The translations under genes were made by a program, and so were the position numbers. A stretch of DNA of 64,000 nt from Eledone cirrhosa (Eukaryota): the NCBI GenBank assembly GCA_964016885.1, contig OZ024765.1, positions 13,578,001 through 13,642,000 on the forward strand. The letters run 5' to 3'. Shown here piece after piece: positions 1 to 58,044 of this stretch. The notes under the pieces were generated by a model that was given only the letters and a program-made list of their open reading frames with translations, was not told the origin of the DNA and searched no databases. Numbering within the stretch: position 1 is the first letter of the stretch; each line of letters opens with the position of its first letter.

Positions 1-324
1 CTGCCAAATAAATGGGCGGCAGTAGTTCCAGCTGCACACATAGAAAAACTGGTGTAGTGATTCTGAGAACAATGCGGCTTTGCAGATGATTTATGTAAAT
101 TGACAATGGAAAGGAGCTCCTGCTCGAGTTAGAAGAGAACTAGTGACCTCTAGGAGAAGCAGCGATCCCTAATTGTATTCAGCAACCACAACAAGTATGA
201 AGTACACCAAATCGAATGTTCCTAGGGGAGGCCCTGGTTCTTCTTATTTGTGAGTGTAAACTCGGCCAGATTAGATTACTCCCACTGTTGACCACAAAAG
301 TTATTTAGTGTTAATAATACATAC

Positions 325-3300
325 CTGGTGTAGTAACGGGTGGAGTACTTGTAGAGATAACTGTAAAAGAGAGACAGGTTAGTTATATTATTAATTATTT
401 CAGTTATAGTTGAGTAAAAAACAGGCAGTTTAGAATATTATAAACAGTTTCGTTGGTGATTAAGAGAACATTATGGCTGTTTGTTTTAGCATAAACAGTT
501 TTTTCTATAATTAAGTGTAAAACAAGCAGTTTCTTTGTATTGTAAACTGTTTTTGTTGCAGTTAAGTAATAAACACACAGTAAATTTATGTTGTAAACTG
601 TTTATCTTGCAGTTAAGTAAAATAAACAAGCAGTTTATTTGTATTTTCTACTGTTTTTGATTTTTAAAGTCTGTCTCAATCTAAGAGGCTGATCAAGTTT
701 GTGCTTTTATGAGTTTGTGTGGTGTTAAGCAACTGAGAGTACAAGAATTCTCCATGTTCAGAATGCCAGTCCATTGCAGAGTTAAAATCTCTCAAGCCTA
801 GAAACACATTAGGCCAGTGTTTATTCAAGTTTCCTTGGCACTTTATATTCTTATTATGACATAACACAGTAAAGTTATTTAGTGTTAATAGTACATACCT
901 GATGTAGTAATGGGTGTACTAATTGTAGAGGTACCTGTAAAGAGAGACAAGTTGAGTTCAGTAAAAAAAATGTCAGGTTTTTGTATTGTAAACTGTTTTT
1001 GTTACAATTAAGTAAAAAAACAAGCAGTTTATTTGTATTTTATACTGTTTTTGTGGTCTAAAATCTGTCTCAACCTCAGAGGCTCATCAGGTTTGTGCTT
1101 CTATGAGTTTGTGTGGTGTTAAGCAACTGAGAGTACAAGATTCCCCCATGGACAGAATGCCAGTCCATTGCAGGGTTAAAACTCCTAGCTATTGCTGGTA
1201 CTCATTTTCAGCTGAATATACTGGAGTGATATGAAATGAAGTATATTGCTCTAAAACACAACACACAACCATCTCTGAACCCAGCATACAGGAGTGACTG
1301 AGGCGTAGATAGCCAGTGATGTAAGCCTATTCCAGTCACAGGAAGGACCCATAGAAGGGGTTGATAGCTTCTGCTATCTATGAAATGTAATTAGCAGTAG
1401 AGCCAAGAGTTTAATAGCTAGAATAAGGTTAGGTTGGAATAATTTGAGAGAGTTACTTTGTGAAGGCACATTGCTTAGTGGTTAGAGTATTGGGCTTGCA
1501 ATCAAAAGGTTGTGAGTTTATATCTTGGACTGGGTGATGTGTTGTGTCCTTGAGCAAGACACTTTATTTCACGTTGCTTCAGTTTACTCAGCTGTAGAAA
1601 TGAGTTGCGATCCTGCCAAATAAATGGGCGGCAGTAGTTCCAGCTGCACACATAGAAAAACTGGTGTAGTGATTCTGAGAACAATGCGGCTTTGCAGATG
1701 ATTTATGTAAATTGACAATGGAAAGGAGCTCCTGCTCGAGTTAGAAGAGAACTAGTGACCTCTAGGAGAAGCAGCGATCCCTAATTGTATTCAGCAACCA
1801 CAACAAGTATGAAGTACACCAAATCGAATGTTCCTAGGGGAGGCCCTGGTTCTTCTTATTTGTGAGTGTAAACTCGGCCAGATTAGATTACTCCCACTGT
1901 TGACCACAAAAGTTATTTAGTGTTAATAATACATACCTGGTGTAGTAACGGGTGGAGTACTTGTAGAGATAACTGTAAAAGAGAGACAGGTTAGTTATAT
2001 TATTAATTATTTCAGTTATAGTGAAGTAAAAAACAGGCAGTTTAGTATATTATAAACAGTGTTGTAGGTGATTAAGAGAACATTATGGCAGTTTGTTTTA
2101 GCATAAACAGTTTTTTCTATAATTAAGTGTAAAACAAGCAGTTTCTTTGTATTGTAAACTGTTTTTGTTGCAGTTAAGTTAAAAAACAAGCAGTTTATTC
2201 ATGTTGTAAAGTGCTTGTCTCGCAGCTAAGTAAAAAACAAGCAGTTCATTTATCCTGTAAACTGTTTTTCTTGCAGTTAAGTAAAAAACAAGCAGCTTAT
2301 TTGTATTTTAAACTGTTTTTGTGGTCTAAAGTCTGTCACAATTTCAGAGGCGCATCATGTTTATGCTTTTATGAGTTTGTGTTGTATTAAGAAACTGAGA
2401 GTACAAGACTTCTCCATGGTCAGAATGCCAGTCCATTGCAGAGTTAAAATCTCTCAAGCCCAGAAACACATTAGGCCAGTGATAATTTAAGTTTCCTTGG
2501 CTCTTTATATTCTTATTATGACATAACACAGTAAAGTTATTTAGTGTTAATAGTACTTACCTGATGTAGTAATGGATGGAGTAATTGTAGAGATAACTGT
2601 AAAGAGAGACAAGCTAGAGTCAAGTAAAGAAAATAGGCAGTTTTTGTATTGTAAATTGATTTTGTTGCCGTTAAGTAAAAAAACAAGCAGTTTATTTATG
2701 TTGCAAACTGTTTTTCTTGCAGTTAAGTAAAAAACAAGCAGCTTAGTTGTATTTTAAATTGACAATGGAAAGGAGCTCCTGCTCGAGTTAGAAGAGAACT
2801 AGTGACCTCCAGGAGAAGCAGCGACCCCTGATTGTATTCAGCAACTGAAACAAATATGAAGTACACCAAATCCAATGCTCCAAGGGGTGGCCCTGGTTCT
2901 TCTTATTTGTGAGTGTAAACTCGGCCAGATTAGATTACTCCCACTGTTGACCACAAAAGTTATTTAGTGTTAATAATACATACCTGGTGTAGTAACGGGT
3001 GGAGTACTTGTAGAGATAACTGTAAAAGAGAGACAGGTTAGTTATATTATTAATTATTTCAGTTATAGTTAAGTAAAAAACAGGTAGTTTACTTGTATTG
3101 TAAACAGTATTCGCTGTTCTTCAGCGTAAAACAGGCAGTTTAGTATATTATAAGTTTTTTGGTGATAAAGAGAACATTATGGCAGTTTATTTTTCATAAA
3201 CAGTTTTTTGTGTAATTAAGTGTAAAATGAGCACTTTATTTGTATTGTAAACTGTTTTTATTGTAGTTAAGTAAGAAAAAAAGAAGCAGTTTATTTATGT

Positions 3301-6300
3301 TGTAAAGTGCTTTTCTTGAAGTTAAGTAAAAAAAACAAGCAACTTATTTGTATTTTATACTGTTTTTGTGGTCTAAAGTCTGCCTCAATCTCAGAGGCTG
3401 ATCAGGTTTGTGCTTTTATGAGTTTGTGTGGTGTTAAGCAACTGAGAGTACAAGACTTCTCCATGGTCAGAATGCCAGTCCATTGCAGAGTTAAAATCTC
3501 TCAAGCCCAGAAACACGTTAGGCCAGTGATTATTCAAGTTTACTTGGCACTTTATATTCTTATTATGACATAACACAGTAAAGTTATTTAGTGTTAATAG
3601 TACATACCTGATGTAGTAATGGGTGTACTAATTGTAGAGGTACCTGTAAAGAGAGACAAGTTGAGTTCAGTAAAAAAAATGTCAGGTTTTTGTATTGTAA
3701 ACTGTTTTTGTTACAATTAAGTAAAAAAACAAGCAGTTTATTTGTATTTTATACTGTTTTTGTGGTCTAAAATCTGTCTCAACCTCAGAGGCTCATCAGG
3801 TTTGTGCTTCTATGAGTTTGTGTGGTGTTAAGCAACTGAGAGTACAAGATTCCCCCATGGACAGAATGCCAGTCCATTGCAGGGTTAAAACTCCTAGCTA
3901 TTGCTGGTACTCATTTTCAGCTGAATATACTGGAGTGATATGAAATGAAGTATATTGCTCTAAAACACAACACACAACCATCTCTGAACCCAGCATACAG
4001 GAGTGACTGAGGCGTAGATAGCCAGTGATGTAAGCCTATTCCAGTCACAGGAAGGACCCATAGAAGGGGTTGATAGCTTCTGCTATCTATGAAATGTAAT
4101 TAGCAGTAGAGCCAAGAGTTTAATAGCTAGAATAAGGTTAGGTTGGAATAATTTGAGAGAGTTACTTTGTGAAGGCACATTGCTTAGTGGTTAGAGTATT
4201 GGGCTTGCAATCAAAAGGTTGTGAGTTTATATCTTGGACTGGGTGATGTGTTGTGTCCTTGAGCAAGACACTTTATTTCACGTTGCTCCAGTTTACTCAG
4301 CTGTAGAAATGAGTTGCGATCCTGCCAAATAAATGGGTGGCAGTAGTTCCAGCTGCACACATAGAAAAACTGGTGTAGTGATTCTGAGAACAATGCGGCT
4401 TTGCAGATGATTTATGTAAATTGACAATGGAAAGGAGCTCCTGCTCGAGTTAGAAGAGAACTAGTGACCTCCAGGAGAAGCAGCGATCCCTAATTGTATT
4501 CAGCAAACGCAACAAGTATGAAGTACACCAAATCGAATGCTCCTAGGGGTGGCCCTGGTTCTTCTTATTTGTGAGTGTAAACTCGGCCAGATTAGATTAC
4601 TCCCACTGTTGACCACAAAAGTTATTTAGTGTTAATAATACATACCTGATGTAGTAACGGGTGGAGTACTTGTAGAGATAACTGTAAAAGAGAGACAGGT
4701 TAGTTATATTATTAATTATTTCAGTTATAGTGAAGTAAAAAACAGGCAGTTTAGTATATTATAAACAGTGTTGTAGGTGATTAAGAGAACATTATGGCAG
4801 TTTGTTTTGGCATAAACAGTTTTTTCTATAATTAAGTGTAAAACAAGCAGTTTCTTTGTATTGTAAACTGTTTTTGTTGCAGTTAAGTTAAAAAACAAGC
4901 AGTTTATTCATGTTGTAAAGTGCTTTTCTCGCAGCTAAGTAAAAAACAAGCAGTTCATTTATCCTGTAAACTGTTTTTCTTGCAGTTAAGTAAAAAACAA
5001 GCAGCTTATTTGTATTTTAAACTGTTTTTGTGGTCTAAAGTCTGTCACAATTTCAGAGGCGCATCATGTTTATGCTTTTATGAGTTTGTGTTGTATTAAG
5101 AAACTGAGAGTACAAGACTTCTCCATGGTCAGAATGCCAGTCCATTGCAGAGTTAAAATCTCTCAAGCCCAGAAACACATTAGGCCAGTGATAATTTAAG
5201 TTTCCTTGGCTCTTTATATTCTTATTATGACATAACACAGTAAAGTTATTTAGTGTTAATAGTACTTACCTGATGTAGTAATGGATGGAGTAATTGTAGA
5301 GATAACTGTAAAGAGAGACAAGCTAGAGTTAAGTAAAGAAAATAGGCAGTTTTTGTATTGTAAATTGATTTTGTTGCCGTTAAGTAAAAAAACAAGCAGT
5401 TTATTTATGTTGCAAACTGTTTTTCTTGCAGTTAAGTAAAAAACAAGCAGCTTAGTTGTATTTTAAATTGACAATGGAAAGGAGCTCCTGCTCGAGTTAG
5501 AAGAGAACTAGTGACCTCCAGGAGAAGCAGCGACCCCTGATTGTATTCAGCAACCGAAACAGATATGAAGTACACCAAATCCAATGCTCCAAGGGGTGGC
5601 CCTGGTTCTTCTTATTTGTGAGTGTAAACTCGGCCAGATTAGATTACTCCCACTGTTGACCACAAAAGTTATTTAGTGTTAATAATACATACCTGGTGTA
5701 GTAACGGGTGGAGTACTTGTAGAGATAACTGTAAAAGAGAGACAGGTTAGTTATATTATTAATTATTTCAGTTATAGTTAAGTAAAAAACAGGCAGTTTA
5801 CTTGTATTGTAAACAGTATTCGCTGTTCTTCAGCGTAAAACAGGCAGTTTAGTATATTATAAGTTTTTTGGTGATTAAGAGAACATTATGGCAGTTTATT
5901 TTTCATAAACAGTTTTTTGTGTAATTAAGTGTAAAATGAGCACTTTATTTGTATTGTAAACTGTTTTTATTGTAGTTAAGTAAGAAAAAAACAAGCAGTT
6001 TATTTATGTTGTAAAGTGCTTTTCTTGAAGTTAAGTAAAAAAAACAAGCAACTTATTTGTATTTTATACTGTTTTTGTGGTCTAAAGTCTGCCTCAATCT
6101 CAGAGGCTGATCAGGTTTGTGCTTTTATGAGTTTGTGTGGTGTTAAGCAACTGAGAGTACAAGACTTCTCCATGGTCAGAATGCCAGTCCATTGCAGAGT
6201 TAAAATCTCTCAAGCCCAGAAACACGTTAGGCCAGTGATTATTCAAGTTTACTTGGCACTTTATATTCTTATTATGACATAACACAGTAAAGTTATTTAG

Positions 6301-9300
6301 TGTTAATAGTACTTACCTGATGTAGTAATGGGTGTACTAATTGTAGAGGTACCTGTAAAGAGAGATAAGTTGAGTTCAGTAAAAAAAATGTCAGGTTTTT
6401 GTATTGTAAACTGTTTTTGTTACAATTAAGTAAAAAAACAAGCAGTTTATTTGTATTTTATACTGTTTTTGTGGTCTAAAATCTGTCTCAACCTCAGAGG
6501 CTCATCAGGTTTGTGCTTCTATGAGTTTGTGTGGTGTTAAGCAACTGAGAGTACAAGATTCCCCCATGGACAGAATGCCAGTCCATTGCAGGGTTAAAAC
6601 TCCTAGCTATTGCTGGTACTCATTTTCAGCTGAATATACTGGAGTGATATGAAATGAAGTATATTGCTCTAAAACACAACACACAACCATCTCTGAACCC
6701 AGCATACAGGAGTGACTGAGGCGTAGATAGCCAGTGATGTAAGCCTATTCCAGTCACAGGAAGGACCCATAGAAGGGGTTGATAGCTTCTGCTATCTATG
6801 AAATGTAATTAGCAGTAGAGCCAAGAGTTTAATAGCTAGAATAAGGTTAGGTTGGAATAATTTGAGAGAGTTACTTTGTGAAGGCACATTGCTTAGTGGT
6901 TAGAGTATTGGGCTTGCAATCAAAAGGTTGTGAGTTTATATCTTGGACTGGGTGATGTGTTGTGTCCTTGAGCAAGACACTTTATTTCACGTTGCTCCAG
7001 TTTACTCAGCTGTAGAAATGAGTTGCGATCCTGCCAAATAAATGGGTGGCAGTAGTTCCAGCTGCACACATAGAAAAACTGGTGTAGTGATTCTGAGAAC
7101 AATGCGGCTTTGCAGATGATTTATGTAAATTGACAATGGAAAGGAGCTCCTGCTCGAGTTAGAAGAGAACTAGTGACCTCCAGGAGAAGCAGCGATCCCT
7201 AATTGTATTCAGCAAACGCAACAAGTATGAAGTACACCAAATCGAATGCTCCTAGGGGTGGCCCTGGTTCTTCTTATTTGTGAGTGTAAACTCGGCCAGA
7301 TTAGATTACTCCCACTGTTGACCACAAAAGTTATTTAGTGTTAATAATACATACCTGATGTAGTAACGGGTGGAGTACTTGTAGAGATAACTGTAAAAGA
7401 GAGACAGGTTAGTTATATTATTAATTATTTCAGTTATAGTGAAGTAAAAAACAGGCAGTTTAGTATATTATAAACAGTGTTGTAGGTGATTAAGAGAACA
7501 TTATGGCAGTTTGTTTTGGCATAAACAGTTTTTTCTATAATTAAGTGTAAAACAAGCAGTTTCTTTGTATTGTAAACTGTTTTTGTTGCAGTTAAGTTAA
7601 AAAACAAGCAGTTTATTCATGTTGTAAAGTGCTTTTCTCGCAGCTAAGTAAAAAACAAGCAGTTCATTTATCCTGTAAACTGTTTTTCTTGCAGTTAAGT
7701 AAAAAACAAGCAGCTTATTTGTATTTTAAACTGTTTTTGTGGTCTAAAGTCTGTCACAATTTCAGAGGCGCATCATGTTTATGCTTTTATGAGTTTGTGT
7801 TGTATTAAGAAACTGAGAGTACAAGACTTCTCCATGGTCAGAATGCCAGTCCATTGCAGAGTTAAAATCTCTCAAGCCCAGAAACACATTAGGCCAGTGA
7901 TAATTTAAGTTTCCTTGGCTCTTTATATTCTTATTATGACATAACACAGTAAAGTTATTTAGTGTTAATAGTACTTACCTGATGTAGTAATGGATGGAGT
8001 AATTGTAGAGATAACTGTAAAGAGAGACAAGCTAGAGTTAAGTAAAGAAAATAGGCAGTTTTTGTATTGTAAATTGATTTTGTTGCCGTTAAGTAAAAAA
8101 ACAAGCAGTTTATTTATGTTGCAAACTGTTTTTCTTGCAGTTAAGTAAAAAACAAGCAGCTTAGTTGTATTTTAAATTGACAATGGAAAGGAGCTCCTGC
8201 TCGAGTTAGAAGAGAACTAGTGACCTCCAGGAGAAGCAGCGACCCCTGATTGTATTCAGCAACCGAAACAGATATGAAGTACACCAAATCCAATGCTCCA
8301 AGGGGTGGCCCTGGTTCTTCTTATTTGTGAGTGTAAACTCGGCCAGATTAGATTACTCCCACTGTTGACCACAAAAGTTATTTAGTGTTAATAATACATA
8401 CCTGGTGTAGTAACGGGTGGAGTACTTGTAGAGATAACTGTAAAAGAGAGACAGGTTAGTTATATTATTAATTATTTCAGTTATAGTTAAGTAAAAAACA
8501 GGCAGTTTACTTGTATTGTAAACAGTATTCGCTGTTCTTCAGCGTAAAACAGGCAGTTTAGTATATTATAAGTTTTTTGGTGATTAAGAGAACATTATGG
8601 CAGTTTATTTTTCATAAACAGTTTTTTGTGTAATTAAGTGTAAAATGAGCACTTTATTTGTATTGTAAACTGTTTTTATTGTAGTTAAGTAAGAAAAAAA
8701 CAAGCAGTTTATTTATGTTGTAAAGTGCTTTTCTTGAAGTTAAGTAAAAAAAACAAGCAACTTATTTGTATTTTATACTGTTTTTGTGGTCTAAAGTCTG
8801 CCTCAATCTCAGAGGCTGATCAGGTTTGTGCTTTTATGAGTTTGTGTGGTGTTAAGCAACTGAGAGTACAAGACTTCTCCATGGTCAGAATGCCAGTCCA
8901 TTGCAGAGTTAAAATCTCTCAAGCCCAGAAACACGTTAGGCCAGTGATTATTCAAGTTTACTTGGCACTTTATATTCTTATTATGACATAACACAGTAAA
9001 GTTATTTAGTGTTAATAGTACTTACCTGATGTAGTAATGGGTGTACTAATTGTAGAGGTACCTGTAAAGAGAGATAAGTTGAGTTCAGTAAAAAAAATGT
9101 CAGGTTTTTGTATTGTAAACTGTTTTTGTTACAATTAAGTAAAAAAACAAGCAGTTTATTTGTATTTTATACTGTTTTTGTGGTCTAAAATCTGTCTCAA
9201 CCTCAGAGGCTCATCAGGTTTGTGCTTCTATGAGTTTGTGTGGTGTTAAGCAACTGAGAGTACAAGATTCCCCCATGGACAGAATGCCAGTCCATTGCAG

Positions 9301-12300
9301 GGTTAAAACTCCTAGCTATTGCTGGTACTCATTTTCAGCTGAATATACTGGAGTGATATGAAATGAAGTATATTGCTCTAAAACACAACACACAACCATC
9401 TCTGAACCCAGCATACAGGAGTGACCGAGGCGTAGATAGCCAGTGATGTAAGCCTATTCCAGTCACAGGAAGGACCCATAGAATGGGTTGATAGCTTCTG
9501 CTATCTATGAAATGTAATTAGCAGTAGAGCCAAGAATTTAATAGCTAGAATAAGGTTAGGTTGGAATAATTTGAGAGAGTTACTTTGTGAAGGCACATTG
9601 CTTAGTGGTTAGAGTATTGGGCTTGCAATCAAAAGGTTGTGAGTTTATATCTTGGACTGGGTGATGTGTTGTGTCCTTGAGCAAGACACTTTATTTCACG
9701 TTGCTCCAGTTTACTCAGCTGTAGAAATGAGTTGCGATCCTGCCAAATAAATATGCGGCAGTAGTTCCAGCTGCACACATAGAAAAACTGGTGTAGTGAT
9801 TCTGAGAACAATGCGGCTTTGCAGATGATTTATGTAAATTGACAATGGAAAGGAGCTCCTGCTCGAGTTAGAAGAGAACTAGTGACCTCCAGGAGAAGCA
9901 GCGATCCCTAATTGTATTCAGCAAACGCAACAAGTATGAAGTACACCAAATCGAATGTTCCTAGGGGAGGCCCTGGTTCTTCTTATTTGTGAGTGTAAAC
10001 TCGGCCAGATTAGATTACTCCCACTGTTGACCACAAAAGTTATTTAGTGTTAATAATACATACCTGATGTAGTAACGGGTGGAGTACTTGTAGAGATAAC
10101 TGTAAAAGAGAGACAGGTTAGTTATATTATTAATTATTTCAGTTATAGTTGAGTAAAAAACAGGCAGTTTAGAATATTATAAACAGTTTCGTTGGTGATT
10201 AAGAGAACATTATGGCTGTTTGTTTTAGCATAAACAGTTTTTTCTATAATTAAGTGTAAAACAAGCAGTTTCTTTGTATTGTAAACTGTTTTTGTTGCAG
10301 TTAAGTAATAAACACACAGTAAATTTATGTTGTAAACTGTTTATCTTGCAGTTAAGTAAATTAAACAAGCAGTTTATTTGTATTTTCTACTGTTTTTGAT
10401 TTTTAAAGTCTGTCTCAATCTAAGAGGCTGATCAAGTTTGTGCTTTTATGAGTTTGTGTGGTGTTAAGCAACTGAGAGTACAAGAATTCTCCATGTTCAG
10501 AATGCCAGTCCATTGCAGAGTTAAAATCTCTCAAGCCTAGAAACACATTAGGCCAGTGTTTATTCAAGTTTCCTTGGCACTTTATATTCTTATTATGACA
10601 TAACACAGGAAAGTTATTTAGTGTTAATAGTACATACCTGATGTAGTAATGGGTGTACTAATTGTAGAGGTACCTGTAAAGAGAGACAAGTTGAGTTCAG
10701 TAAAAAAAATGGCAGGTTTTTGTATTGTAAACTGTTTTTGTTACAATTAAGTAAAAAAACAAGCAGTTTATTTGTATTTTATACTGTTTTTGTGGTCTAA
10801 AATCTGTCTCAACCTTAGAGGCTCATCAGGTTTGTGCTTCTATGAGTTTGCATGGTGTTAAGCAACTGAGAGTACAAGACTCCCCCATGGACAGCATGCC
10901 AGTCCATTGCAGGGTTAAACCTCCTACCTATTGCTGGTACTCATTTTCAGCTGAATATACTGGAGTGATATGAAATGAAGTATATTGCTCTAAAACACAA
11001 CACACAACCATCTCTGAACCCAGCATACAGGAGTGACCGAGGCGTAGATAGCCCTTGATGTAAGCCTATTCCAGTCAGAGGAAGGAACCACAGAAGGGGT
11101 TGATAGCTTCTGCTATCTATGAAATGTAATTAGCAGTAGAGCTGAGAGTTTAATAGCTAGAATAAGGATAGGTTGGAATAATTTGAGAGAGTTACTTTGT
11201 GAAGGCGCATGGCTTAGTGGTTAGAGTATTGGGCTTGCCATCAAAAGGTTGTGAGTTTATATATCGGACTGGGTGATGTGTTGTGTCCTTGAGCAAGACA
11301 CTTTATATCACGTTGCTCCAGTTTACTCAGCTGTAGAAATCAATTGCCATCCTGCCAAATAAATGGGTGGCAGTAGTTCCAGCTGCACACATAGAAAGAC
11401 TGGTGTAGTTATTCTGAGAACAATGTGGCTTTTCAGATGATTTATGTAAATTGACAATGGAAAGGAGCTCCTGCTCGAGTTAGAAGAGAACTAGTGACCT
11501 CCAGGAGAAGCAGCGATCCCTAATTGTATTCAGCAACCACAACAAATATGAAGTACACCAAATCGAATGTTCCTAGGGGAGGCCCTGGTTCTTCTTATTT
11601 GTGAGTGTAAACTCGGCCAGATTAGATTACTCCCACTGTTGACCACAAAAGTTATTTAGTGTTAATAATACATACCTGGTGTAGTAACGGGTGGAGTACT
11701 TGTAGAGATAACTGTAAAAGAGAGACAGGTTAGTTATATTATTAATTATTTCAGTTATAGTGAAGTAAAAAACAGGCAGTTTAGTATATTATAAACAGTG
11801 TTGTAGGTGATTAAGAGAACATTATGGCAGTTTGTTTTAGCATAAACAGTTTTTTCTATAATTAAGTGTAAAACAAGCAGTTTCTTTGTATTGTAAACTG
11901 TTTTTGTTGCAGTTAAGTTTAAAAAAAAGCAGTTTATTCATGTTGTAAAGTGCTTTTCTCGCAGCTAAGTAAAAAACAAGCAGTTCATTTATCCTGTAAA
12001 CTGTTTTTCCTGCAGTTAAGTAAAAAACAAGCAGCTTAATTGTATTTTAAACTGTTTTTGTGATCTAAAGTCTGTCACAATTTCAGAGGCGCATCATGTT
12101 TATGCTTTTATGAGTTTGTGTGGTGTTAAGCAACTGAGAGTACAAGACTTCTCCATGGTCAGAATGCCAGTCCATTGCAGAGTTAAAATCTCTCAAGCCC
12201 AGAAACACATTAGGCCAGTGATAATTTAAGTTTCCTTGCCACTTTATATTCTTATTATGACATAACACAGTAAAGTTATTTAGTGTTAATAGTACTTACC

Positions 12301-15300
12301 TGATGTAGTAATGGATGGAGTAATTGTAGAGATAACTGTAAAGAGAGACAAGCTAGAGTCAAGTAAAGAAAATAGGCAGTTTTTGTATTGTAAATTGATT
12401 TTGTTGCCGTTAAGTAAAAAAACAAGCAGTTTATTTATGTTGCAAACTGTTTTTCTTGCAGTTAAGTAAAAAACAAGCAGCTTAGTTGTATTTTAAATTG
12501 ACAATGGAAAGGAGCTCCTGCTCGAGTTAGAAGAGAACTAGTGACCTCCAGGAGAAGCAGCGACCCCTGATTGTATTCAGCAACCGAAACAGATATGAAG
12601 TACACCAAGTCCAATGCTCCTAGGGGTGGCCCTGGTTCTTCTTATTTGTGAGTGTAAACTCGGCCAGATTAGATTACTCCCACTGTTGACCACAAAAGTT
12701 ATTTAGTGTTAATAATACATACCTGGTGTAGTAACGGGTGGAGTACTTGTAGAGATAACTGTAAAAGAGAGACAGGTTAGTTATATTATTAATTATTTCA
12801 GTTATAGTTAAGTAAAAAACAGGCAGTTTACTTGTATTGTAAACAGTATTCGCTGTTCTTCAGCGTAAAACAGGCAGTTTAGTATATTATAAGTTTTTTG
12901 GTGATTAAGAGAACATTATGGCAGTTTATTTTTCATAAACAGTTTTTTGTGTAATTAAGTGTAAAATGAGCACTTTATTTGTATTGTAAACTGTTTTTAT
13001 TGTAGTTAAGTAAGAAAAAAAGAAGCAGTTTATTTATGTTGTAAAGTGCTTTTCTTGAAGTTAAGTAAAAAAAACAAGCAACTTATTTGTATTTTATACT
13101 GTTTTTGTGGTCTAAAGTCTGCCTCAATCTCAGAGGCTGATCAGGTTTGTGCTTTTATGAGTTTGTGTGGTGTTAAGCAACTGAGAGTACAAGACTTCTC
13201 CATGGTCAGAATGCCAGTCCATTGCAGAGTTAAAATCTCTCAAGCCCAGAAACACGTTAGGCCAGTGATTATTCAAGTTTACTTGGCACTTTATATTCTT
13301 ATTATGACATAACACAGTAAAGTTATTTAGTGTTAATAGTACATACCTGATGTAGTAATGGGTGTACTAATTGTAGAGGTACCTGTAAAGAGAGACAAGT
13401 TGAGTTCAGTAAAAAAAATGTCAGGTTTTTGTATTGTAAACTGTTTTTGTTACAATTAAGTAAAAAAACAAGCAGTTTATTTGTATTTTATACTGTTTTT
13501 GTGGTCTAAAATCTGTCTCAACCTCAGAGGCTCATCAGGTTTGTGCTTCTATGAGTTTGTGTGGTGTTAAGCAACTGAGAGTACAAGATTCCCCCATGGA
13601 CAGAATGCCAGTCCATTGCAGGGTTAAAACTCCTAGCTATTGCTGGTACTCATTTTCAGCTGAATATACTGGAGTGATATGAAATGAAGTATATTGCTCT
13701 AAAACACAACACACAACCATCTCTGAACCCAGCATACAGGAGTGACTGAGGCGTAGATAGCCAGTGATGTAAGCCTATTCCAGTCACAGGAAGGACCCAT
13801 AGAAGGGATTGATAGCTTCTGCTATCTATGAAATGTAATTAGCAGTAGAGCCAAGAGTTTAATAGCTAGAATAAGGTTAGGTTGGAATAATTTGAGAGAG
13901 TTACTTTGTGAAGGCACATTGCTTAGTGGTTAGAGTATTGGGCTTGCAATCAAAAGGTTGTGAGTTTATATCTTGGACTGGGTGATGTGTTGTGTCCTTG
14001 AGCAAGACACTTTATTTCACGTTGCTCCAGTTTACTCAGCTGTAGAAATGAGTTGCGATCCTGCCAAATAAATGTGCGGCAGTAGTTCCAGCTGCACACA
14101 TAGAAAAACTGGTGTAGTGATTCTGAGAACAATGCGGCTTTGCAGATGATTTATGTAAATTGACAATGGAAAGGAGCTCCTGCTCGAGTTAGAAGAGAAC
14201 TAGTGACCTCCAGGAGAAGCAGCGATCCCTAATTGTATTCAGCAAACGCAACAAGTATGAAGTACACCAAATCGAATGTTCCTAGGGGAGGCCCTGGTTC
14301 TTCTTATTTGTGAGTGTAAACTCGGCCAGATTAGATTACTCCCACTGTTGACCACAAAAGTTATTTAGTGTTAATAATACATACCTGGTGTAGTAACGGG
14401 TGGAGTACTTGTAGAGATAACTGTAAAAGAGAGACAGGTTAGTTATATTATTAATTATTTCAGTTATAGTGAAGTAAAAAACAGGCAGTTTAGTATATTA
14501 TAAACAGTGTTGTAGGTGATTAAGAGAACATTATGGCAGTTTGTTTTAGCATAAACAGTTTTTTCTATAATTAAGTGTAAAACAAGCAGTTTCTTTGTAT
14601 TGTAAACTGTTTTTGTTGCAGTTAAGTTAAAAAACAAGCAGTTTATTCATGTTGTAAAGTGCTTTTCTCGCAGCTAAGTAAAAAACAAGCAGTTCATTTA
14701 TCCTGTAAACTGTTTTTCTTGCAGTTAAGTAAAAAACAAGCAGCTTAATTGTATTTTAAACTGTTTTTGTGGTCTAAAGTCTGTCACAATTTCAGAGGCG
14801 CATCATGTTTATGCTTTTATGAGTTTGTGTGGTGTTAAGCAACTGAGAGTACAAGACTTCTCCATGGTCAGAATGCCAGTCCATTGCAGAGTTAAAATCT
14901 CTCAAGCCCAGAAACACATTAGGCCAGTGATAATTTAAATTTCCTTGCCACTTTATATTCTTATTATGACATAACACAGTAAAGTTATTTAGTGTTAATA
15001 GTACTTACCTGATGTAGTAATGGATGGAGTAATTGTAGAGATAACTGTAAAGAGAGACAAGCTAGAGTTAAGTAAAGAAAATAGGCAGTTTTTGTATTGT
15101 AAATTGATTTTGTTGCCGTTAAGTAAAAAAACAAGCAGTTTATTTATGTTGCAAACTGTTTTTCTTGCAGTTAAGTAAAAAACAAGCAGCTTAGTTGTAT
15201 TTTAAATTGACAATGGAAAGGAGCTCCTGCTCGAGTTAGAAGAGAACTAGTGACCTCCAGGAGAAGCAGCGACCCCTGATTGTATTCAGCAACCGAAACA

Positions 15301-18300
15301 GATATGAAGTACACCAAATCCAATGCTCCTAGGGGTGGCCCTGGTTCTTCTTATTTGTGAGTGTAAACTCGGCCAGATTAGATTACTCCCACTGTTGACC
15401 ACAAAAGTTATTTAGTGTTAATAATACATACCTGGTGTAGTAACGGGTGGAGTACTTGTAGAGATAACTGTAAAAGAGAGACAGGTTAGTTATATTATTA
15501 ATTATTTCAGTTATAGTTAAGTAAAAAACAGGCAGTTTACTTGTATTGTAAACAGTATTCGCTGTTCTTCAGCGTAAAACAGGCAGTTTAGTATATTATA
15601 AGTTTTTTGGTGATTAAGAGAACATTATGGCAGTTTATTTTTCATAAACAGTTTTTTGTGTAATTAAGTGTAAAATGAGCACTTTATTTGTATTGTAAAC
15701 TGTTTTTATTGTAGTTAAGTAAGAAAAAAAGAAGCAGTTTATTTATGTTGTAAAGTGCTTTTCTTGAAGTTAAGTAAAAAAAACAAGCAACTTATTTGTA
15801 TTTTATACTGTTTTTGTGGTCTAAAGTCTGCCTCAATCTCAGAGGCTGATCAGGTTTGTGCTTCTATGAGTTTGTGTGGTGTTAAGCAACTGAGAGTACA
15901 AGATTCCCCCATGGACAGAATGCCAGTCCATTGCAGGGTTAAAACTCCTAGCTATTGCTGGTACTCATTTTCAGCTGAATATACTGGAGTGATATGAAAT
16001 GGAGTGACTGAGGCGTAGATAGCCAGTGATGTAAGCCTATTCCAGTCACAGGAAGGACCCATAGAAGGGGTTGATAGCTTCTGCTATCTATGAAATGTAA
16101 TTAGCAGTAGAGCCAAGAGTTTAATAGCTAGAATAAGGTTAGGTTGGAATAATTTGAGAGAGTTACTTTGTGAAGGCACATTGCTTAGTGGTTAGAGTAT
16201 TGGGCTTGCAATCAAAAGGTTGTGAGTTTATATCTTGGACTGGGTGATGTGTTGTGTCCTTGAGCAAGACACTTTATTTCACGTTGCTCCAGTTTACTCA
16301 GCTGTAGAAATGAGTTGCGATCCTGCCAAATAAATGTGCGGCAGTAGTTCCAGCTGCACACATAGAAAAACTGGTGTAGTGATTCTGAGAACAATGTGGC
16401 TTTTCAGATGATTTATGTAAATTGACAATGGAAAGGAGCTTCTGCTCGAGTTAGTAGAGAACTATTGACCTTCAGGAGAAGCAGCGACCCCTGATTGTAT
16501 TCTGCAACTGAAACAGATATGAAGTACACCAAATCCAATGCTCTTAGGGGTGGCCCTGGTTCTTCTTATTTGTGAGTGTAAACTTGGCCAGATTAGATTA
16601 CTCCCACTGTTGACCACAAAAGTTATTTAGTGTTAATAATACATACCTGGTGTAGTAACGGGTGGAGTACTTGTAGAGATAACTGTAAAAGAGAGACAGG
16701 TTAGTTATATTATTAATTATTCCAGTTATATTTATGTAAAAAACAGGTAGTTTACTTGTATTGTAAACAGTATTTGCTGTTCTTCAGCGTAAAACAGGCA
16801 GCTTAGTATATTATAAGCAGTTTTGTAGGTGATTAAGAGAACATTATGGTAGTTTTTTGTGTAATTAAGTGTAAAATGAGCACTTTATTTGTATTGTAAA
16901 CTGTTTTTATTGTAGTTAAGTAAGAAAAAAAGAAGCAGTTTATTTATGTTGTAAAGTGTTTTTCTTGAAGTTAAGTAAAAAAACAAGCAACTTATTTGTA
17001 TTTTATACTGTTTTTGTGGTCTAAAGTCTGCCTCAATCTCAGAGGCTGATCAGGTTTGTGCTTTTATGAGTTTAATAGCTAGAATAAGGATAGGTTGGAA
17101 TAATTTGAGAGAGTTACTTTGTGAAGGCACATTGCTTAGTGGTTAGAGTATTGAGCTTGCAATCAAAAGGTTGTGAGTTTATATCTTGGACTGGGTGATG
17201 TGTTGTGTCCTTGAGCAAGACACTTTATTTCACGTTGCTCCAGTTTACTCAGCTGTAGAAATGAGTTGCGATCCTGCTAAATAAATGAGTACAAGACTTC
17301 TCCATGGTCAGAATGCCAGTCCATTGCAGAGTTAAAATCTCTCAAGCCCAGAAACACATTAGGCCAGTGTTTATTCAAGTTTCCTTGGCACTTTATATTC
17401 TTATTATGACATAACATAGTAAAGTTATTTAGTGTTAATAGTACATACCTGATGTAGTAATGGGTGGAGTAATTGTAGAGATAACTGTAAAGAGAGACAA
17501 GCTAGAGTTAAGTAAAAAAAATAGGCAGTTTTTGTATTGTAAATTGATTTTGTTGCCGTTAAGTTAAAAAACAAGCAGTTTATTCATGTTGTAAAGTGCT
17601 TTTCTCACAGCTAAGTAAAAAACAAGCAGTTCATTTATCCTGTAAACTGTTTTTCTTGCAGCTAAGTAAAAAAACAAGCAGTTTATTTGTATTTTATACT
17701 GGTTTTGTGGTCTAAAATCTGTCTCAACCTCAGAGGTGCATCAGGTTTGTGCTTCTATGAGTTTGTGTGTAAGCAACTGAGAGTACAAAACCCCTCCATG
17801 GACAGAATGCCAGTCCATTAAAGGGTTAAAATCTCTCAAGCCCCGAAACACATTAGGCCAGTATTTATTCACGTTTCCTTGGCATTTTATATTCTTATTA
17901 TGACATAACACAGTAAAGTTATTTAGTGTTAATAGTACATACCTGATGTAGTAATGGGTGGAGTAATTGTAGAGATAACTGTAAAGAGAGACAAGCTAGA
18001 GTTAAGTAAAAAAAATAGGCAGTTTTTGTATTGTAAATTGATTTTGTTGCTGTTAAGTTAAAAAACAAGCAGTTTATTCATGTTGTAAAGTGCTTTTCTC
18101 ACAGCTAAGTAAAAAACAAGCAGTTCATTTATCCTGTAAACTGTTTTTCTTGCAGCTAAGTAAAAAAACAAGCAGTTTATTTGTATTTTATACTGGTTTT
18201 GTGGTCTAAAATCTGTCTCAACCTCAGAGGCGCATCAGGTTTGTGCTTCTATGAGTTTGTGTGTAAGCAACTGAGAGTACAAAACCCCTCCATGGACAGA

Positions 18301-19449
18301 ATGCCAGTCCATTAAAGGGTTAAAATCTCTCAAGCCCCGAAACACATTAGGCCAGTATTCATTCACGTTTCCTTGGCACTTTATATTCTTATTATGACAT
18401 AACACAGTAAAGTTATTTAGTGTTAATAGTACATACCTGATGTAGTAATGGGTGGAGTAATTGTAGAGATACCTGTAAAGAGAGACAAGCTGAGTTAAGT
18501 AAAAAAAATAGGCAGTTTTTTGTATTGTAAATTGATTTTGTTGCAGTTAAATAAAAAAACAAGCAGTATACTTATGTTGTAAAGTGTTTTTCTCGCAGCT
18601 AAGTAAAAAAACAAACAGTTTACTTATCTTGTAAACTGTTTTTCTTGCAGTTAAGTAAAAAACAACCAGCTTATTTGTATTTTAAACTATTTTTGTGGTC
18701 TAAAGTCTGTCACAATCTAAGAGGCTGATCACGTTTGTGCTTCTATGAGTTTGTGTGGTGTTAAGCAACTGAGAGTACAAGACTTCTCCATGGACAGAAT
18801 GTGAGTCCATTGCAGGGTTAAAATCTCTCAAGCCCAGAAACACATTAGGCCAGTGATTATTTAAGTTTCCTTGCAACTTTATATTCTTATTATGACATAA
18901 CACTGTAAAGTTATTTAGTGTTAATAGTTCATACCTGATGTAGTGATGGGTGGAGTAATTGTAGAGATAACTGTAAAGAGAGACAAGTTAGAGTTAAGTA
19001 AAAAAAAATGCAGGTTTTTGTATTGTAAACTGTTTTTGTTACAATTAAGTAAAAAAAACAGCAGTTTATTTATTTTGTAAACTGTTTTTCTTGCAGTTTT
19101 TGTGGTGTTAAGCAACTGAGAGTACAAGACTTCTCCATGGTCAGAATGCCAGTCCATTGCTGAGTTAAAATCTCTGAAGCCCAGAAACACATTAGGCCAG
19201 TGTTTATTCAAGTTTCCTTGGCACTTTATATTCTTATTATGGCATAACACAGTAAAGTTATTTAGTGTTAATAGTACATACCTGATGTAGTAATGGGTGG
19301 ACTAATTGTAGAGATAACTGTAAAGAGAGACAAGCTAGAGTTAAGTAAAGAAATGGGCAGTGTTTTTGTATTATAAACAGTTTTGCTGGTGGTTAAGTAA
19401 AAAATAAGCATACTTTCTCGTGTAACAGGTAGAGTAATTGTAGAAGTAA
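325..19449 (-). CDS. PTS micro-exon set 2: 30 exons of exactly 36 nt (12 aa each)
   Basis: Low coordinates (each exon = x..x+35): 325, 899, 1937, 2561, 2984, 3608, 4646, 5270, 5693, 6317, 7355, 7979, 8402, 9026, 10064, 10638, 11676, 12300, 12723, 13347, 14385, 15009, 15432, 16647, 17449, 17943, 18437, 18935, 19282, 19414. All are tttacag|...|gtatg or gtaagt, phase 1-1. Peptides include [11 protein letters not shown](P/S), [36 protein letters not shown] and [12 protein letters not shown]. Confidence 0.88.
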
Positions 19450-22400
19450 CTGTAAAAGAGACAGGCTAGTTATATTATTAACTATTTCAATTATAGTTAA
19501 GTAAACAATAGGCAGTTTTTTGTATTTTAAACTGTTTTTGTCACAGTTAAGTGTAAAACAAGCTGTTTAATTGTATTGTAAGCAGTTTTTGTTGCAGTTA
19601 AATGTAAAACAGGCAGTTTATTTATATCTGAAACTATTTTTGTTGTATGTTAGTGTAAAATAGGCAGTTTATTTGTATTGTAAGCAGTTTTTGTTGTAGT
19701 TAAGTGTTAAATGTCCATAACTGATAAAGATATAGATGGACTAACTGTACTGGCAACTCTAAAAGACAAATATTTTATTTATATTATAAATACACCCAGT
19801 ACACTCTGTAATGTGGTTGGTGATAGGAACAACATGACATTTCCCTTGGACAACATCATATATAGTGTATATATAGTGTCTATATAATGTATATATAGTC
19901 TATATATGAATTGAAATGTCTCTGGTGCCAAGCTATGTCAGCCATTGTCTTTCCCTTGGACAACATCAGTGGCGTGGAGAGGGTAAACTGGTATACATGG
20001 GCGACTGCTGCTTTTTCACAAACAGCCTTGCCCAGACTTGAGTCTCGGAAAAAAACTTTGTAAGGGCAAATTCCATGGTCACACATGATTGAAGGGGTTC
20101 TTTACCCTAAGTATTACACATACTTCTATTTTTAAATAACTAGAATTTTTTTCAACATGCTGACGTGTATGTGTATATGTGTGGGTGTGTGTGTATATAT
20201 GTGTGTATGTACATATACATACATTTATATGTATGAGTATATAAATACAAATGCTCAAACACAGACACACCCTACATCCACAGAAACACATTCACACAAA
20301 CACATACATCCACAGAAACACATACATACATTCACACAAACATGCACATACACACACACATACATTTACACACACACAATGAGGTAGTATCAAAAAGTCT
20401 TCAATCTAGTTCTGTAACAAGCCAAGAAAGAAAGGAGCTGATCATCAGATCAGACCAAGGAAACAATGTTTCCATTGGTCTTTCTATTACTGATACTATT
20501 TGTCAGTCACAACTCCTGGCAGAAAGAGCAACGTGAAATAAAGTGTCTTGCTCAAGGACATGACACATTGCCTGTTAAAGTGAATTTGCGTACTTCAAGT
20601 TTGCATAAAAAGCGAACCGACTGTACTTCTATTCTTATAAATGATTTAATTAACATCAAGAAGACAAGAAAATGACTCGTTAAACTATTCATACCTGTTG
20701 AAGTAGGTGTAGTAACGGACGGTGTTATAACTGGAAAATAGAGGAGTTTATTATAATTATTAGAAACTGTCTTAAACTATTAATTATTAAAAATAACTTC
20801 AATGTTTCTTATTCTTTGCCTTCTTCTTTCCTGAGACAATCTAACCAGATGTCCATAGTATCAGAGCTGTGATCTCTCAATTCCGAGAAGTAGTGGCTCT
20901 ACCTGGAGTGACTCTCTAATCTCCGAGCTACACACTCTATTGAGTAACGTTACAGTGCATAGCTTTGAGATCAAAGAGTCACTCCAGGTAGAGCCACTAC
21001 TTCTCCAAATTGAGAGATCACAGCTCCAATACTATGAACATGTGTTTAGAATGTCTCAGGAAAGAATTGCTGGAGATATTTGTAGCTCGGAGATCAGAGA
21101 GTCATTCCAGGTAGAGCTGCTACTTCTCCAAATTGAGAGATTTCAGCTCCGATACTATGGACATGTGATTAGAATGTCTCAGGAAAGAATCCCTGGAGAT
21201 ATTTGTAGCTCGAAGATCGGAGTAACTCCAAGTAGAGCTGCTGCTTCACTGAATTGAGAGATCACAGCTCCGATACTATGGACATGTGGTTAGAATGTCT
21301 CAGGAAAGAATCGCTGGACAGATTTGTAGCTCAGAGATCAGAGAGTTACATTGGTAGAGCCACTACTTCTCTGAATTGGAGGATAACAGCTCTGATACTA
21401 TAGGCATGTGATTAGAATGGGTCTCCTGTCAGTTGTTTTGCCTGTAAAATCTGTCCAGCGATTCTTCATATATACATGTTTTACTTAAATGTGGTTAACC
21501 AAGAAGTAATAATTAGATGATGATAATTAGGCATCATTTTGTTGTAAATGGGGTTGTCAATGAACTCACTAATATTTTACGAATAACAGAAAATTACAGG
21601 AACCATATAATATTTTAATTAATAAGTTAAAATTTATAATATTTCAATTAATAAGTTAAAATTCATAATATTTCAAATAATAAGTTAAAATGCATAATGT
21701 TTTGATTAATAAGTTAAATATAATATTTTGAATAATAAGTTAAAATCTATAATACTTTGATTAATAAGTTAAATATATATTTTAATTAATAAGTTAAAAG
21801 ATATAATACTTTGATTAATATTAATTAAAATATATAATATTTTAATTAATAAATTAAAAGGTATAATATTTTAAATATCATCTACATCTGGGTGGGTAAA
21901 ATTCCCGAGATCCATGGACGAGTTCTCTCCAGCGTTCTCTGTCCCTCATCATCGCTGCCATGTCCTGCGTCTCCAAGAGACCAGTGTCTGTCCTTAGGGC
22001 ATCAAAATATGTTAACCTTGGTCTTCCTCTTCCAGTGTGTCCATGTAGAGGCTCCCACAGGAATACTGAGTGCAATGTCAACTTTGGATGTCGGTGAGCA
22101 TGTCCAGCTAACCTCAGTCTCCTCTGTGTCACTTTGGAGCTGTATATATATATATATACATACATATCCTGTCTCCCTCTTCAAGTGTGTCAGTGCAGGG
22201 GCTCCCACGGGAGCACTGAGTGCAGTGTCAACTCTGGATGTCAGTGAGCTTGTCCAGCTAACCTCAGTCTCCTCTGTGTTACTTTCGAGTTGACTTTTGG
22301 GAGGCTGCCGTACAGCTCTGAGTTCTTCATCCTCAGTGTATACTGATTAATGTTCAGAGCCATCCTCAGCTGAGACTGAGAATATTTTGAATAATAGGTT

Positions 22401-58007: not shown

Positions 58008-58044
<37 letters not shown>

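What the first reader, a model, noticed from the sequence alone, without database searches (positions are those of the whole stretch)
1..16700. Nested higher-order repeat (monomer, 2709 bp, 9739 bp) that writes an A-B-A-C peptide code
Seen: each 2709-bp unit carries four exons, in transcript order [12 protein letters not shown] (A), [12 protein letters not shown] (B), [11 protein letters not shown](P/S) (A), [12 protein letters not shown] (C). A 1612-bp two-exon variant recurs at a 9739-bp period (3x2709+1612). Introns are about as similar between copies as the exons are. Inference: a centromere-like higher-order architecture inside a coding gene, produced by very recent unequal crossing-over and probably polymorphic between individuals.
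Basis: partly seen in the sequence, partly recalled or inferred. Interest (0 to 1): 0.7.

Follow-up and report, generated by a model that had tools for sequence, protein, structure and literature searches.

The report
Octopus mucin stalk from patterned microexons
The repeat is the middle of a very large octopus SCO-spondin/mucin-like gene, where 47 tiny exon-like units of 36 bases, copied together with their introns in two- and four-unit blocks, would spell a long, likely sugar-coated stalk; it is a tidy new case of a known design, and the claimed 9.7-kb top level of repetition is not a true repeat.

Summary
The array is real. The minus strand carries 30 exon-like 36-nt units (AG…GT, phase 1-1) in the window and 50 in all, since the array runs 13 kb past the left edge. 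The 2709-bp A-B-A-C block (6 copies) and the A-C block (6 copies) are confirmed. The 9739-bp level is not: it is one imperfect pair covering 0.7 of a period, and the block order is irregular. The basic rule is A/non-A alternation (38 of 40 neighbours). The units are recombinant mosaics, near-identical in the centre and 3-7% diverged at the edges, as unequal crossing-over with conversion predicts. Contig depth in a public run tracks assembled copy number, so the array is not over-assembled. The host is an octopod gene of about 235 kb: three VWD-C8-TIL units, LDLa, alternating PTS linkers and a two-exon domain, TSP1s and a weak cystine knot. The array would add about 585 aa at 71% Pro/Thr/Ser. 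The Octopus vulgaris orthologue has a different 12-aa repeat at the same place. Precedents: chicken Muc13, SmPoMuc, Argiope MaSp2, NBPF. Splicing and polymorphism are untested.

The parts
325..19449 (-). In-window part of the microexon array: 30 units of 36 nt. The main array has 47 units and continues to G000:C26:13564998, 13 kb left of the window; three more copies lie at C26:13548657-13551765, the last with both splice sites lost.
12759..15467 (-). U1, A-B-A-C block (exons 15432-15467, 15009-15044, 14385-14420, 13347-13382); recombinant, first half like U2/U6, second half like U3-U5
10100..12758 (-). U2, A-B-A-C block followed by the short (538-nt) C-to-A intron; carries the second haplotype of the long intron, shared with U6 outside the window
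8438..10099 (-). V1, A-C block (exons 10064-10099, 9026-9061)
3020..8437 (-). U3 and U4, two A-B-A-C blocks; 3658-6716 and 6367-9425 are identical over 3059 bp (newest duplication)
361..3019 (-). U5, A-B-A-C block; its last part (329-2022) is identical over 1694 bp to the A-C block 1612 bp to the left
16647..19449 (-). Diverged 5' edge of the array: seven microexons, including a 494-bp single-exon tandem (17287-19091)
20695..20730 (-). Lone 36-nt phase 1-1 PTS microexon ([12 protein letters not shown]), predicted
22597..22623 (-). Lone 27-nt phase 1-1 microexon (DLFPITTPR), predicted
26367..28347 (-). Two exons (28076-28347, phase 1 to 0; 26367-26499, phase 0 to 1) of an unnamed ~135-aa domain that precedes the array; copies of this domain follow it outside the window; 47% identical to the O. 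vulgaris orthologue
52460..52614 (-). LDL-receptor class A exon (Pfam PF00057, E 5e-11)
56036..56185 (-). TIL exon (PF01826, E 8e-8)
57289..58326 (-). Two exons of the third C8 domain (57289-57396, 58187-58326), 75-89% identical to Octopus SCO-spondin-like proteins
59531..62468 (-). Two exons of the third VWD domain (62124-62468, PF00094 E 2e-23; 59531-59737)

Best explanation
The repeat is an array of 47 intact 36-nt exon-like units, each duplicated together with its intron, inside an octopod SCO-spondin/mucin-like gene, and when spliced it would encode a Pro/Thr/Ser-rich stalk of about 585 residues that is likely O-glycosylated. How it arose (order inferred; mosaic pattern shown): one 36-nt phase-1 exon with its intron duplicated into two types, A and non-A; the A+non-A pair became the unit of copying; two diverged pairs (A-B, A-C) joined into the 2709-bp block; unequal crossing-over and conversion between misaligned blocks then added, removed and patched blocks, most recently in the centre. 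Because every exon is 36 nt and phase 1-1, any gain or loss of whole monomers keeps the frame, so such events are tolerated. The A-B-A-C peptide order is most likely a by-product of the block size, not a selected code. What it does (inferred from domain order and from gel-forming mucins): a secreted polymer-forming glycoprotein, joined through N-terminal VWD assemblies and a C-terminal cystine knot, in which this linker is an extended, hydrated spacer whose length is set by copy number.
For: Splice signals: 49 of 50 copies have AG/GT and none has an indel; the exception is an edge copy with both sites lost and 5 changes. Frame runs LDLa (ends phase 1), domain exons (1-0, 0-1), microexons (1-1), next domain exon (starts phase 1); 585 codons, 0 stops, 71% P/T/S. 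Host gene: Pfam VWD, TIL, LDLa, TSP1, EGF; O. vulgaris CAI9741631.1 maps colinearly from +106887 to 52461 at 53-90% identity, then to the 28.3-kb domain, then has ten 12-aa PTS repeats at the array's position. Short PTS linkers alternate with the same domain in pearl-oyster, nemertean, chiton and argonaut proteins. The duplicated domain just downstream differs at 1 of 393 exon bases (silent) against 24 of 1419 flanking bases, so the gene is under constraint. Recombination: sites 517-719 of the block group U1+U2+U6, sites 1325-2046 mostly U2+U6; 126 of 946 informative site pairs are incompatible with one tree. Central monomers are 0-1% from their nearest copy, most edge monomers 3-7%. Exact duplicates of 3059 and 1694 bp. 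In run X1, five array contigs show 10.3-14.4 depth units per assembled copy over 4-18 copies.
Against: No transcript shows that the microexons are joined. The exons give no sign of amino-acid constraint: 9 replacement and 4 silent changes against 72:33 possible, and no single change can make a stop in the A exon (0 of 105), so the lack of stops says little. B/C exons are no more alike than their introns. The cystine knot scores below Pfam's cut-off (E 0.012); the signal peptide is only a candidate. The O. vulgaris repeat shares only 3-4 of 12 residues, comes from an automatic model, and its exon layout could not be seen. Two single-copy edge contigs show half the per-copy depth (5.5-5.7), so the true array may be up to twice as long as assembled.
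Confidence: 0.8

Rival explanations
1. The array is a splicing cassette: exons are included in variable number or combination, so that one genome makes stalks of many lengths, and the A/non-A alternation is kept by a splicing or glycosylation constraint.
For: All exons are symmetric; alternation is nearly strict, 38 of 40, against a maximum of 34 in 100,000 permutations; intron positions +7 to +40 are the least variable part of the monomer (0.3% and 1.7%); core A, B and C differ only by replacement changes (7 of 7 between A and C); SmPoMuc varies by splicing (PMC2576457, passages) and this was proposed for Muc13 (PMC1552070, passages).
Against: Alternation follows automatically if the copied unit is a pair; 7 of 7 replacements has a chance of about 0.07 under the 72:33 ratio (my arithmetic); donor and acceptor sites are uniformly consensus-like. 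This reading adds to the best explanation and does not replace it.
Confidence: 0.15
2. The array is an intronic satellite grown from a once-coding exon; most copies are skipped.
For: Exons evolve about as fast as introns; the replacement:silent ratio is neutral-like; the region is full of minisatellites; one edge copy has decayed.
Against: 49 of 50 keep both splice sites and exact length while the introns collect indels; diverged edge copies are intact too; the orthologue's model has a 12-aa PTS repeat here.
Confidence: 0.1
3. A true three-level repeat with a 9739-bp unit.
For: 98.7% identity over 6209 bp at this offset inside the window; past an exact 1612-bp duplicate the match carries on in part at 11351 bp, so (UUVU)x2 is one possible history.
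Against: Only 0.7 of a period matches; because U3 and U4 are near-identical a 7030-bp offset fits about as well; U2 is closer to U6; spacing of A-C blocks is irregular.
Confidence: 0.1
4. The block structure is inflated by the assembler.
For: Two exact duplications (3059 and 1694 bp) could be assembly slips; no laid record spans the array.
Against: The other blocks differ by 0.6-3.5%; depth per assembled copy equals or doubles the single-copy depth. One block more or fewer cannot be excluded.
Confidence: 0.05

Closest known systems
Chicken Muc13 (Lang, Hansson, Samuelsson 2006, PMC1552070; passages read)
   Same: PTS domain written one repeat per exon, near-identical exons.
   Different: Muc13 is a transmembrane SEA mucin with 20-aa repeats; no multi-exon block pattern in the passages read. 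Here a VWD-type protein with 12-aa repeats in two- and four-exon blocks.
Schistosoma mansoni SmPoMuc (Roger et al. 2008, PMC2576457; passages read)
   Same: 27-bp exon inside ~1-kb genomic repeats, introns over 94% identical, concerted evolution.
   Different: A multigene family with shown splice and individual variation; no edge gradient, so the authors favoured conversion. Here one locus with an edge gradient and several intron types in fixed order.
Argiope MaSp2 spidroins (PMC9779670; passages read)
   Same: [quoted passage not shown]
   Different: Silk with larger exons and two intron types; the authors knew no other gene with two alternating homogenised intron types. Here the cycle has four intron types, plus a fifth in the A-C blocks.
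NBPF/Olduvai triplets (PMC9584774; passages read)
   Same: Willard-type higher-order repeat of exon+intron monomers in a coding gene (units ~1.6% apart, monomers ~18%).
   Different: Regular 3-mer of 1.6-kb two-exon monomers in long runs; here microexon monomers of unequal length, at most three like blocks in a row.
Invertebrate mucin-like / SCO-spondin-like proteins (Lang et al. 2016, PMC4948705; passages read)
   Same: Three VWD-C8-TIL units, LDLa, PTS near F5/8-type domains; the group lies nearest vertebrate SCO-spondin.
   Different: One LDLa found; the domain between the linkers has no Pfam hit here; one linker is expanded about tenfold relative to the mollusc and worm relatives seen.

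Membership tests
Higher-order repeat (Willard definition) | Monomers within a unit more diverged than copies of the unit | tested here: met
   A vs B/C 10.6-12.7%, B vs C 7.9%, A1 vs A2 3.8% over alignable parts; blocks 0.2-3.5%
Higher-order repeat (Willard definition) | Whole units iterated in tandem: 2709-bp and A-C blocks | tested here: met
   Runs of 2 and 3 ABAC blocks, and of 2 and 3 AC blocks
Higher-order repeat (Willard definition) | Whole units iterated in tandem: 9739-bp level | tested here: not met
   0.7 period, irregular order outside the window
Centromeric satellite | CENP-A binding, very long array | not testable with these tools
   Array is about 32 kb inside a gene; no chromatin data
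One-repeat-per-exon mucin domain (Muc13, SmPoMuc type) | Symmetric exons equal to one PTS repeat, with splice sites | tested here: met
   49 of 50 AG/GT, 36 nt, phase 1-1, 71% P/T/S
One-repeat-per-exon mucin domain (Muc13, SmPoMuc type) | Exons joined in mRNA | not testable with these tools
   No RNA data were laid
Gel-forming mucin (Lang 2016) | Three N-terminal VWD-C8-TIL units | tested here: met
   Three sets of exons at about +104 to +83 kb, +81 to +70 kb and 62468-56036; Pfam confirmed for the third VWD and TIL
Gel-forming mucin (Lang 2016) | PTS domain | tested here: met
   Predicted 585 aa, 71% P/T/S, conditional on splicing
Gel-forming mucin (Lang 2016) | C-terminal cystine knot | tested here: inconclusive
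   Exon at L013:2588-2857, Cys_knot E 0.012, below cut-off
Gel-forming mucin (Lang 2016) | Signal peptide, secretion, O-glycosylation, gel formation | not testable with these tools
   Only a candidate hydrophobic ATG exon at +111494
SCO-spondin | LDLa domains after the VWD units | tested here: met
   One LDLa; relatives scanned have 4-7 stretches
SCO-spondin | TSP1 repeats in the C-terminal part | tested here: met
   TSP_1 E 2e-8; further TSP1-like exons at -102 to -118 kb
SCO-spondin | F5/8 type C domain | tested here: inconclusive
   No Pfam hit for the three domain exons and one second exon scanned; an argonaut relative scores E 0.0027, below cut-off
SCO-spondin | Orthology to the vertebrate gene | not tested
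   No tree built; the name comes from database labels of Octopus proteins

The most novel reading that the evidence does not exclude
Each octopus lineage rewrites this stalk from a different 12-residue microexon, and the four-intron cycle works as a modular cassette that gives individual- and transcript-specific stalk length and glycan spacing: a fast-turning, SmPoMuc-like diversifier in a cephalopod barrier or adhesive protein, and a more complex ordered cycle of homogenised introns than the two-type alternation reported for spider silk.
Probability: 0.15. Interest if true: 0.65.

Novelty: new variant of a known kind. Interest (0 to 1): 0.36.

Why it matters
It shows how a mucin stalk can grow by copying exon+intron blocks, with the steps still readable in the sequence: pair, pair of pairs, patched mosaic. 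It adds a four-intron cycle to a design for which a 2022 spider-silk paper knew only a two-intron case. In practice such arrays look like satellite DNA and may explain why the Octopus database models of this gene are fragments (508, 424 and 2480 aa). It does not open a new mechanism.

Tried and rejected
No RNA holder listed for 12200-20800; this is no evidence on expression. Rejected: that the 1612-bp block is a fresh deletion from the 2709-bp block; its 538-nt intron is about 40 differences from both 588-nt introns and is an old lineage of its own. Rejected: 9739 bp as a unit. Rejected: that the TSP1/TIL exons at +187 to +212 kb are this gene's 5' end; the O. vulgaris model starts at +106887 and those exons follow another run of the domain, so they read as the 3' half of a neighbouring paralogue. 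The inter-linker domain found no hit in a word-based search or the ESM Atlas; a profile search found 37 relatives. No structure was predicted. Literature searches for a cephalopod microexon mucin array listed none by title or abstract start; the library lacks most subscription papers. Earlier scan notes near this place: none.
Full report
Coordinates are window coordinates. Values below 1 or above 64000 refer to the flanks fetched from the same contig (window = G000:C26:13578001-13642000; 200 kb each side).

1. Observation. A self-comparison gives 2709, 9739, 7030, 5418 and 4321 bp as the main periods. On the minus strand, 30 units of 36 nt bounded by AG and GT lie between 325 and 19449. With the left flank there are 50: 47 in one run ending at -13002, and three at -26235, -27577 and -29308. 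Forty-nine keep AG/GT; the last has AC/CT and five changes. The same pattern occurs 47 times on the minus strand of the array, 0 times on the plus strand and 0.09 times on average in 100 shuffles. A genome search with one exon and its flanks returned 41 matches, all at this locus (40 of 50 candidates scored).

2. Structure. In transcript order: six edge exons, A, then ABAC ABAC AC ABAC ABAC ABAC AC AC ABAC AC AC AC, then four diverged exons. Classed by the intron after the exon, A and non-A monomers alternate at 38 of 40 neighbours, against a maximum of 34 in 100,000 permutations. The basic unit is therefore a pair, and ABAC is a pair of pairs. Monomer types differ by 4-13% where they align, ABAC blocks by 5 to 93 bases in about 2700; this meets the usual definition of a higher-order repeat. 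Five intron types recur: 387, 588 (two unrelated kinds), about 1002, and 538 nt. The 9739-bp offset matches only from about 9000 to 15950, includes a patch with 24 mismatches in 500, and is hardly better than 7030 bp because U3 and U4 share 3059 identical bases. U2 is 21 differences from U6 (15672 bp away) and 51 from U5 (9739 bp away). It is one imperfect pair, not a level of the repeat.

3. Mechanism of spread. Informative sites switch partners along the block: four sites at 517-719 group U1+U2+U6, most sites from 1325 to 2046 group U2+U6, and 126 of 946 site pairs are incompatible with one tree. Central monomers lie 0-1% from their nearest copy, most edge monomers 3-7%. Two exact tandem duplicates exist, 3059 bp at 2709 and 1694 bp at 1612. 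This is what unequal crossing-over with conversion predicts; the edge gradient is the test named in PMC2576457 (passages). An older duplication at 17.9 kb copied microexons together with the next domain; its exons differ at 1 of 393 bases (silent), its flanks at 24 of 1419.

4. Artefact check. Reads and contigs of four runs were laid on 1001-20300. Eight X1 contigs were listed; I dropped one (20 differences, a dispersed-repeat copy from elsewhere, depth 11.7). Five from the array core have depths 202, 120, 61, 57 and 60, i.e. 10.3-14.4 per assembled 31-mer copy over 4-18 copies. Two from the single-copy edge have 5.5-5.7. So the monomer classes occur in the assembled proportions and the array is as long as assembled or up to twice as long. 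Limits: contig depth is a rough measure, X1 may be the assembled animal, and one block more or fewer is not resolved. In X4, from another organism, one 588-bp contig matches only 123 bp around an A exon, with 18 differences: a relative has the exon in different surroundings.

5. Host gene. Minus-strand exons give EGF (+106.8 kb), three VWD-C8-TIL sets, one LDLa (52460-52614), a two-exon domain (28076-28347, 26367-26499), the microexons, three further copies of that domain type (-14.3, -32.2, -64.6 kb), TSP1 and TIL exons (-102 to -123 kb), a VWC-like exon and a weak cystine knot at -127 kb. The VWD exon is 80% identical to Octopus bimaculoides SCO-spondin, so the animal is an octopod (inference). 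Phases are compatible through the array, which would add 585 codons, no stop, 71% Pro/Thr/Ser. In pearl oyster, a nemertean, a chiton and the argonaut the same domain alternates with PTS linkers of tens of residues. The O. vulgaris model CAI9741631.1 maps colinearly at 53-90% identity and, right after the matching domain, carries ten 12-aa repeats of different sequence (3-4 of 12 identical); it has also amplified 14-aa repeats and six copies of the domain elsewhere. Repeat turnover here is thus lineage-specific. Proteins labelled SCO-spondin were found in O. vulgaris skin mucus (PMC11431876, passages); whether they are this gene's orthologue was not checked.

6. Against over-reading. The microexons show 9 replacement and 4 silent changes (72:33 possible), and no single change can create a stop in the A exon. 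Selection on the peptide order is not shown, and splicing is inferred from splice sites, frame and the orthologue only.

7. Known cases. One repeat per exon: chicken Muc13 (PMC1552070, passages) and SmPoMuc. Ordered exon+intron blocks: NBPF triplets (PMC9584774, passages) and Argiope MaSp2 (PMC9779670, passages), whose authors knew no other gene with two alternating homogenised intron types. Family context: PMC4948705 (passages); its supplementary figure S4 on lophotrochozoan architectures was not read and may show this protein type. Searches (listings only) gave no cephalopod case. Earlier notes of this scan describe similar arrays in shark, ray, urchin and fungal genes (unchecked), which suggests the design is widespread.

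8. Verdict. Real, well ordered at two levels, explained by a known process in a known kind of gene. New in its four-intron cycle and in the octopod setting. Interest 0.36.

Noticed in passing
L038-L040 and L033-L035 (about +233 to +261 kb and +187 to +212 kb): 3' half of a neighbouring paralogue on the same strand: at least nine tandem copies of the same two-exon domain at about 3-4 kb spacing, 90-98% identical with their introns, then TSP1/TIL exons; 59-76% identical to argonaut, O. vulgaris mucin-2-like and unnamed proteins. A second, independent exon+intron amplification.
   Followed up: partly
L002:5447-5710 and L004 (17885 bp apart): Older duplication of microexons plus the following two-exon domain; exons near-identical, flanks 0.5-5% diverged.
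   Followed up: yes
L003:657-692 (window coordinate -29343 to -29308): Decayed microexon copy that has lost both splice sites.
   Followed up: yes
window 28076-28347 and 26367-26499: Unnamed ~135-aa domain alternating with PTS linkers in lophotrochozoan mucin-like proteins; 37 relatives by profile search, only a sub-threshold F5/8 type C hint; one more copy on contig C2.
   Followed up: partly
window 32700-52400: Composite repeat in the intron after the LDLa exon: 72-bp minisatellite blocks alternating with CAC-rich tracts, with a 4091-bp duplication (42938-47507 vs 47029-51663, 95%).
   Followed up: no
window 29900-31631, 56313-57210, 60264-61509; L028-L030 (+143.7 to +154.8 kb): Intronic minisatellites of 49, 123 and 106 bp; an 11-kb array of 51-bp units upstream.
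   Followed up: no
window, e.g. 4140-4330 and 16130-16330: A dispersed SINE-like piece inside the 1002-nt intron was co-amplified with the A-C pair; parts of that intron hit 18-37 other places in the 464-kb region (the SINE label is recalled).
   Followed up: partly
L008 (-71.5 to -76.9 kb) and L006-L007 (-57.3 to -64.3 kb): Broken LINE-like and mariner-like transposon ORFs inside introns of the gene (labels from reading the translations, recalled).
   Followed up: no
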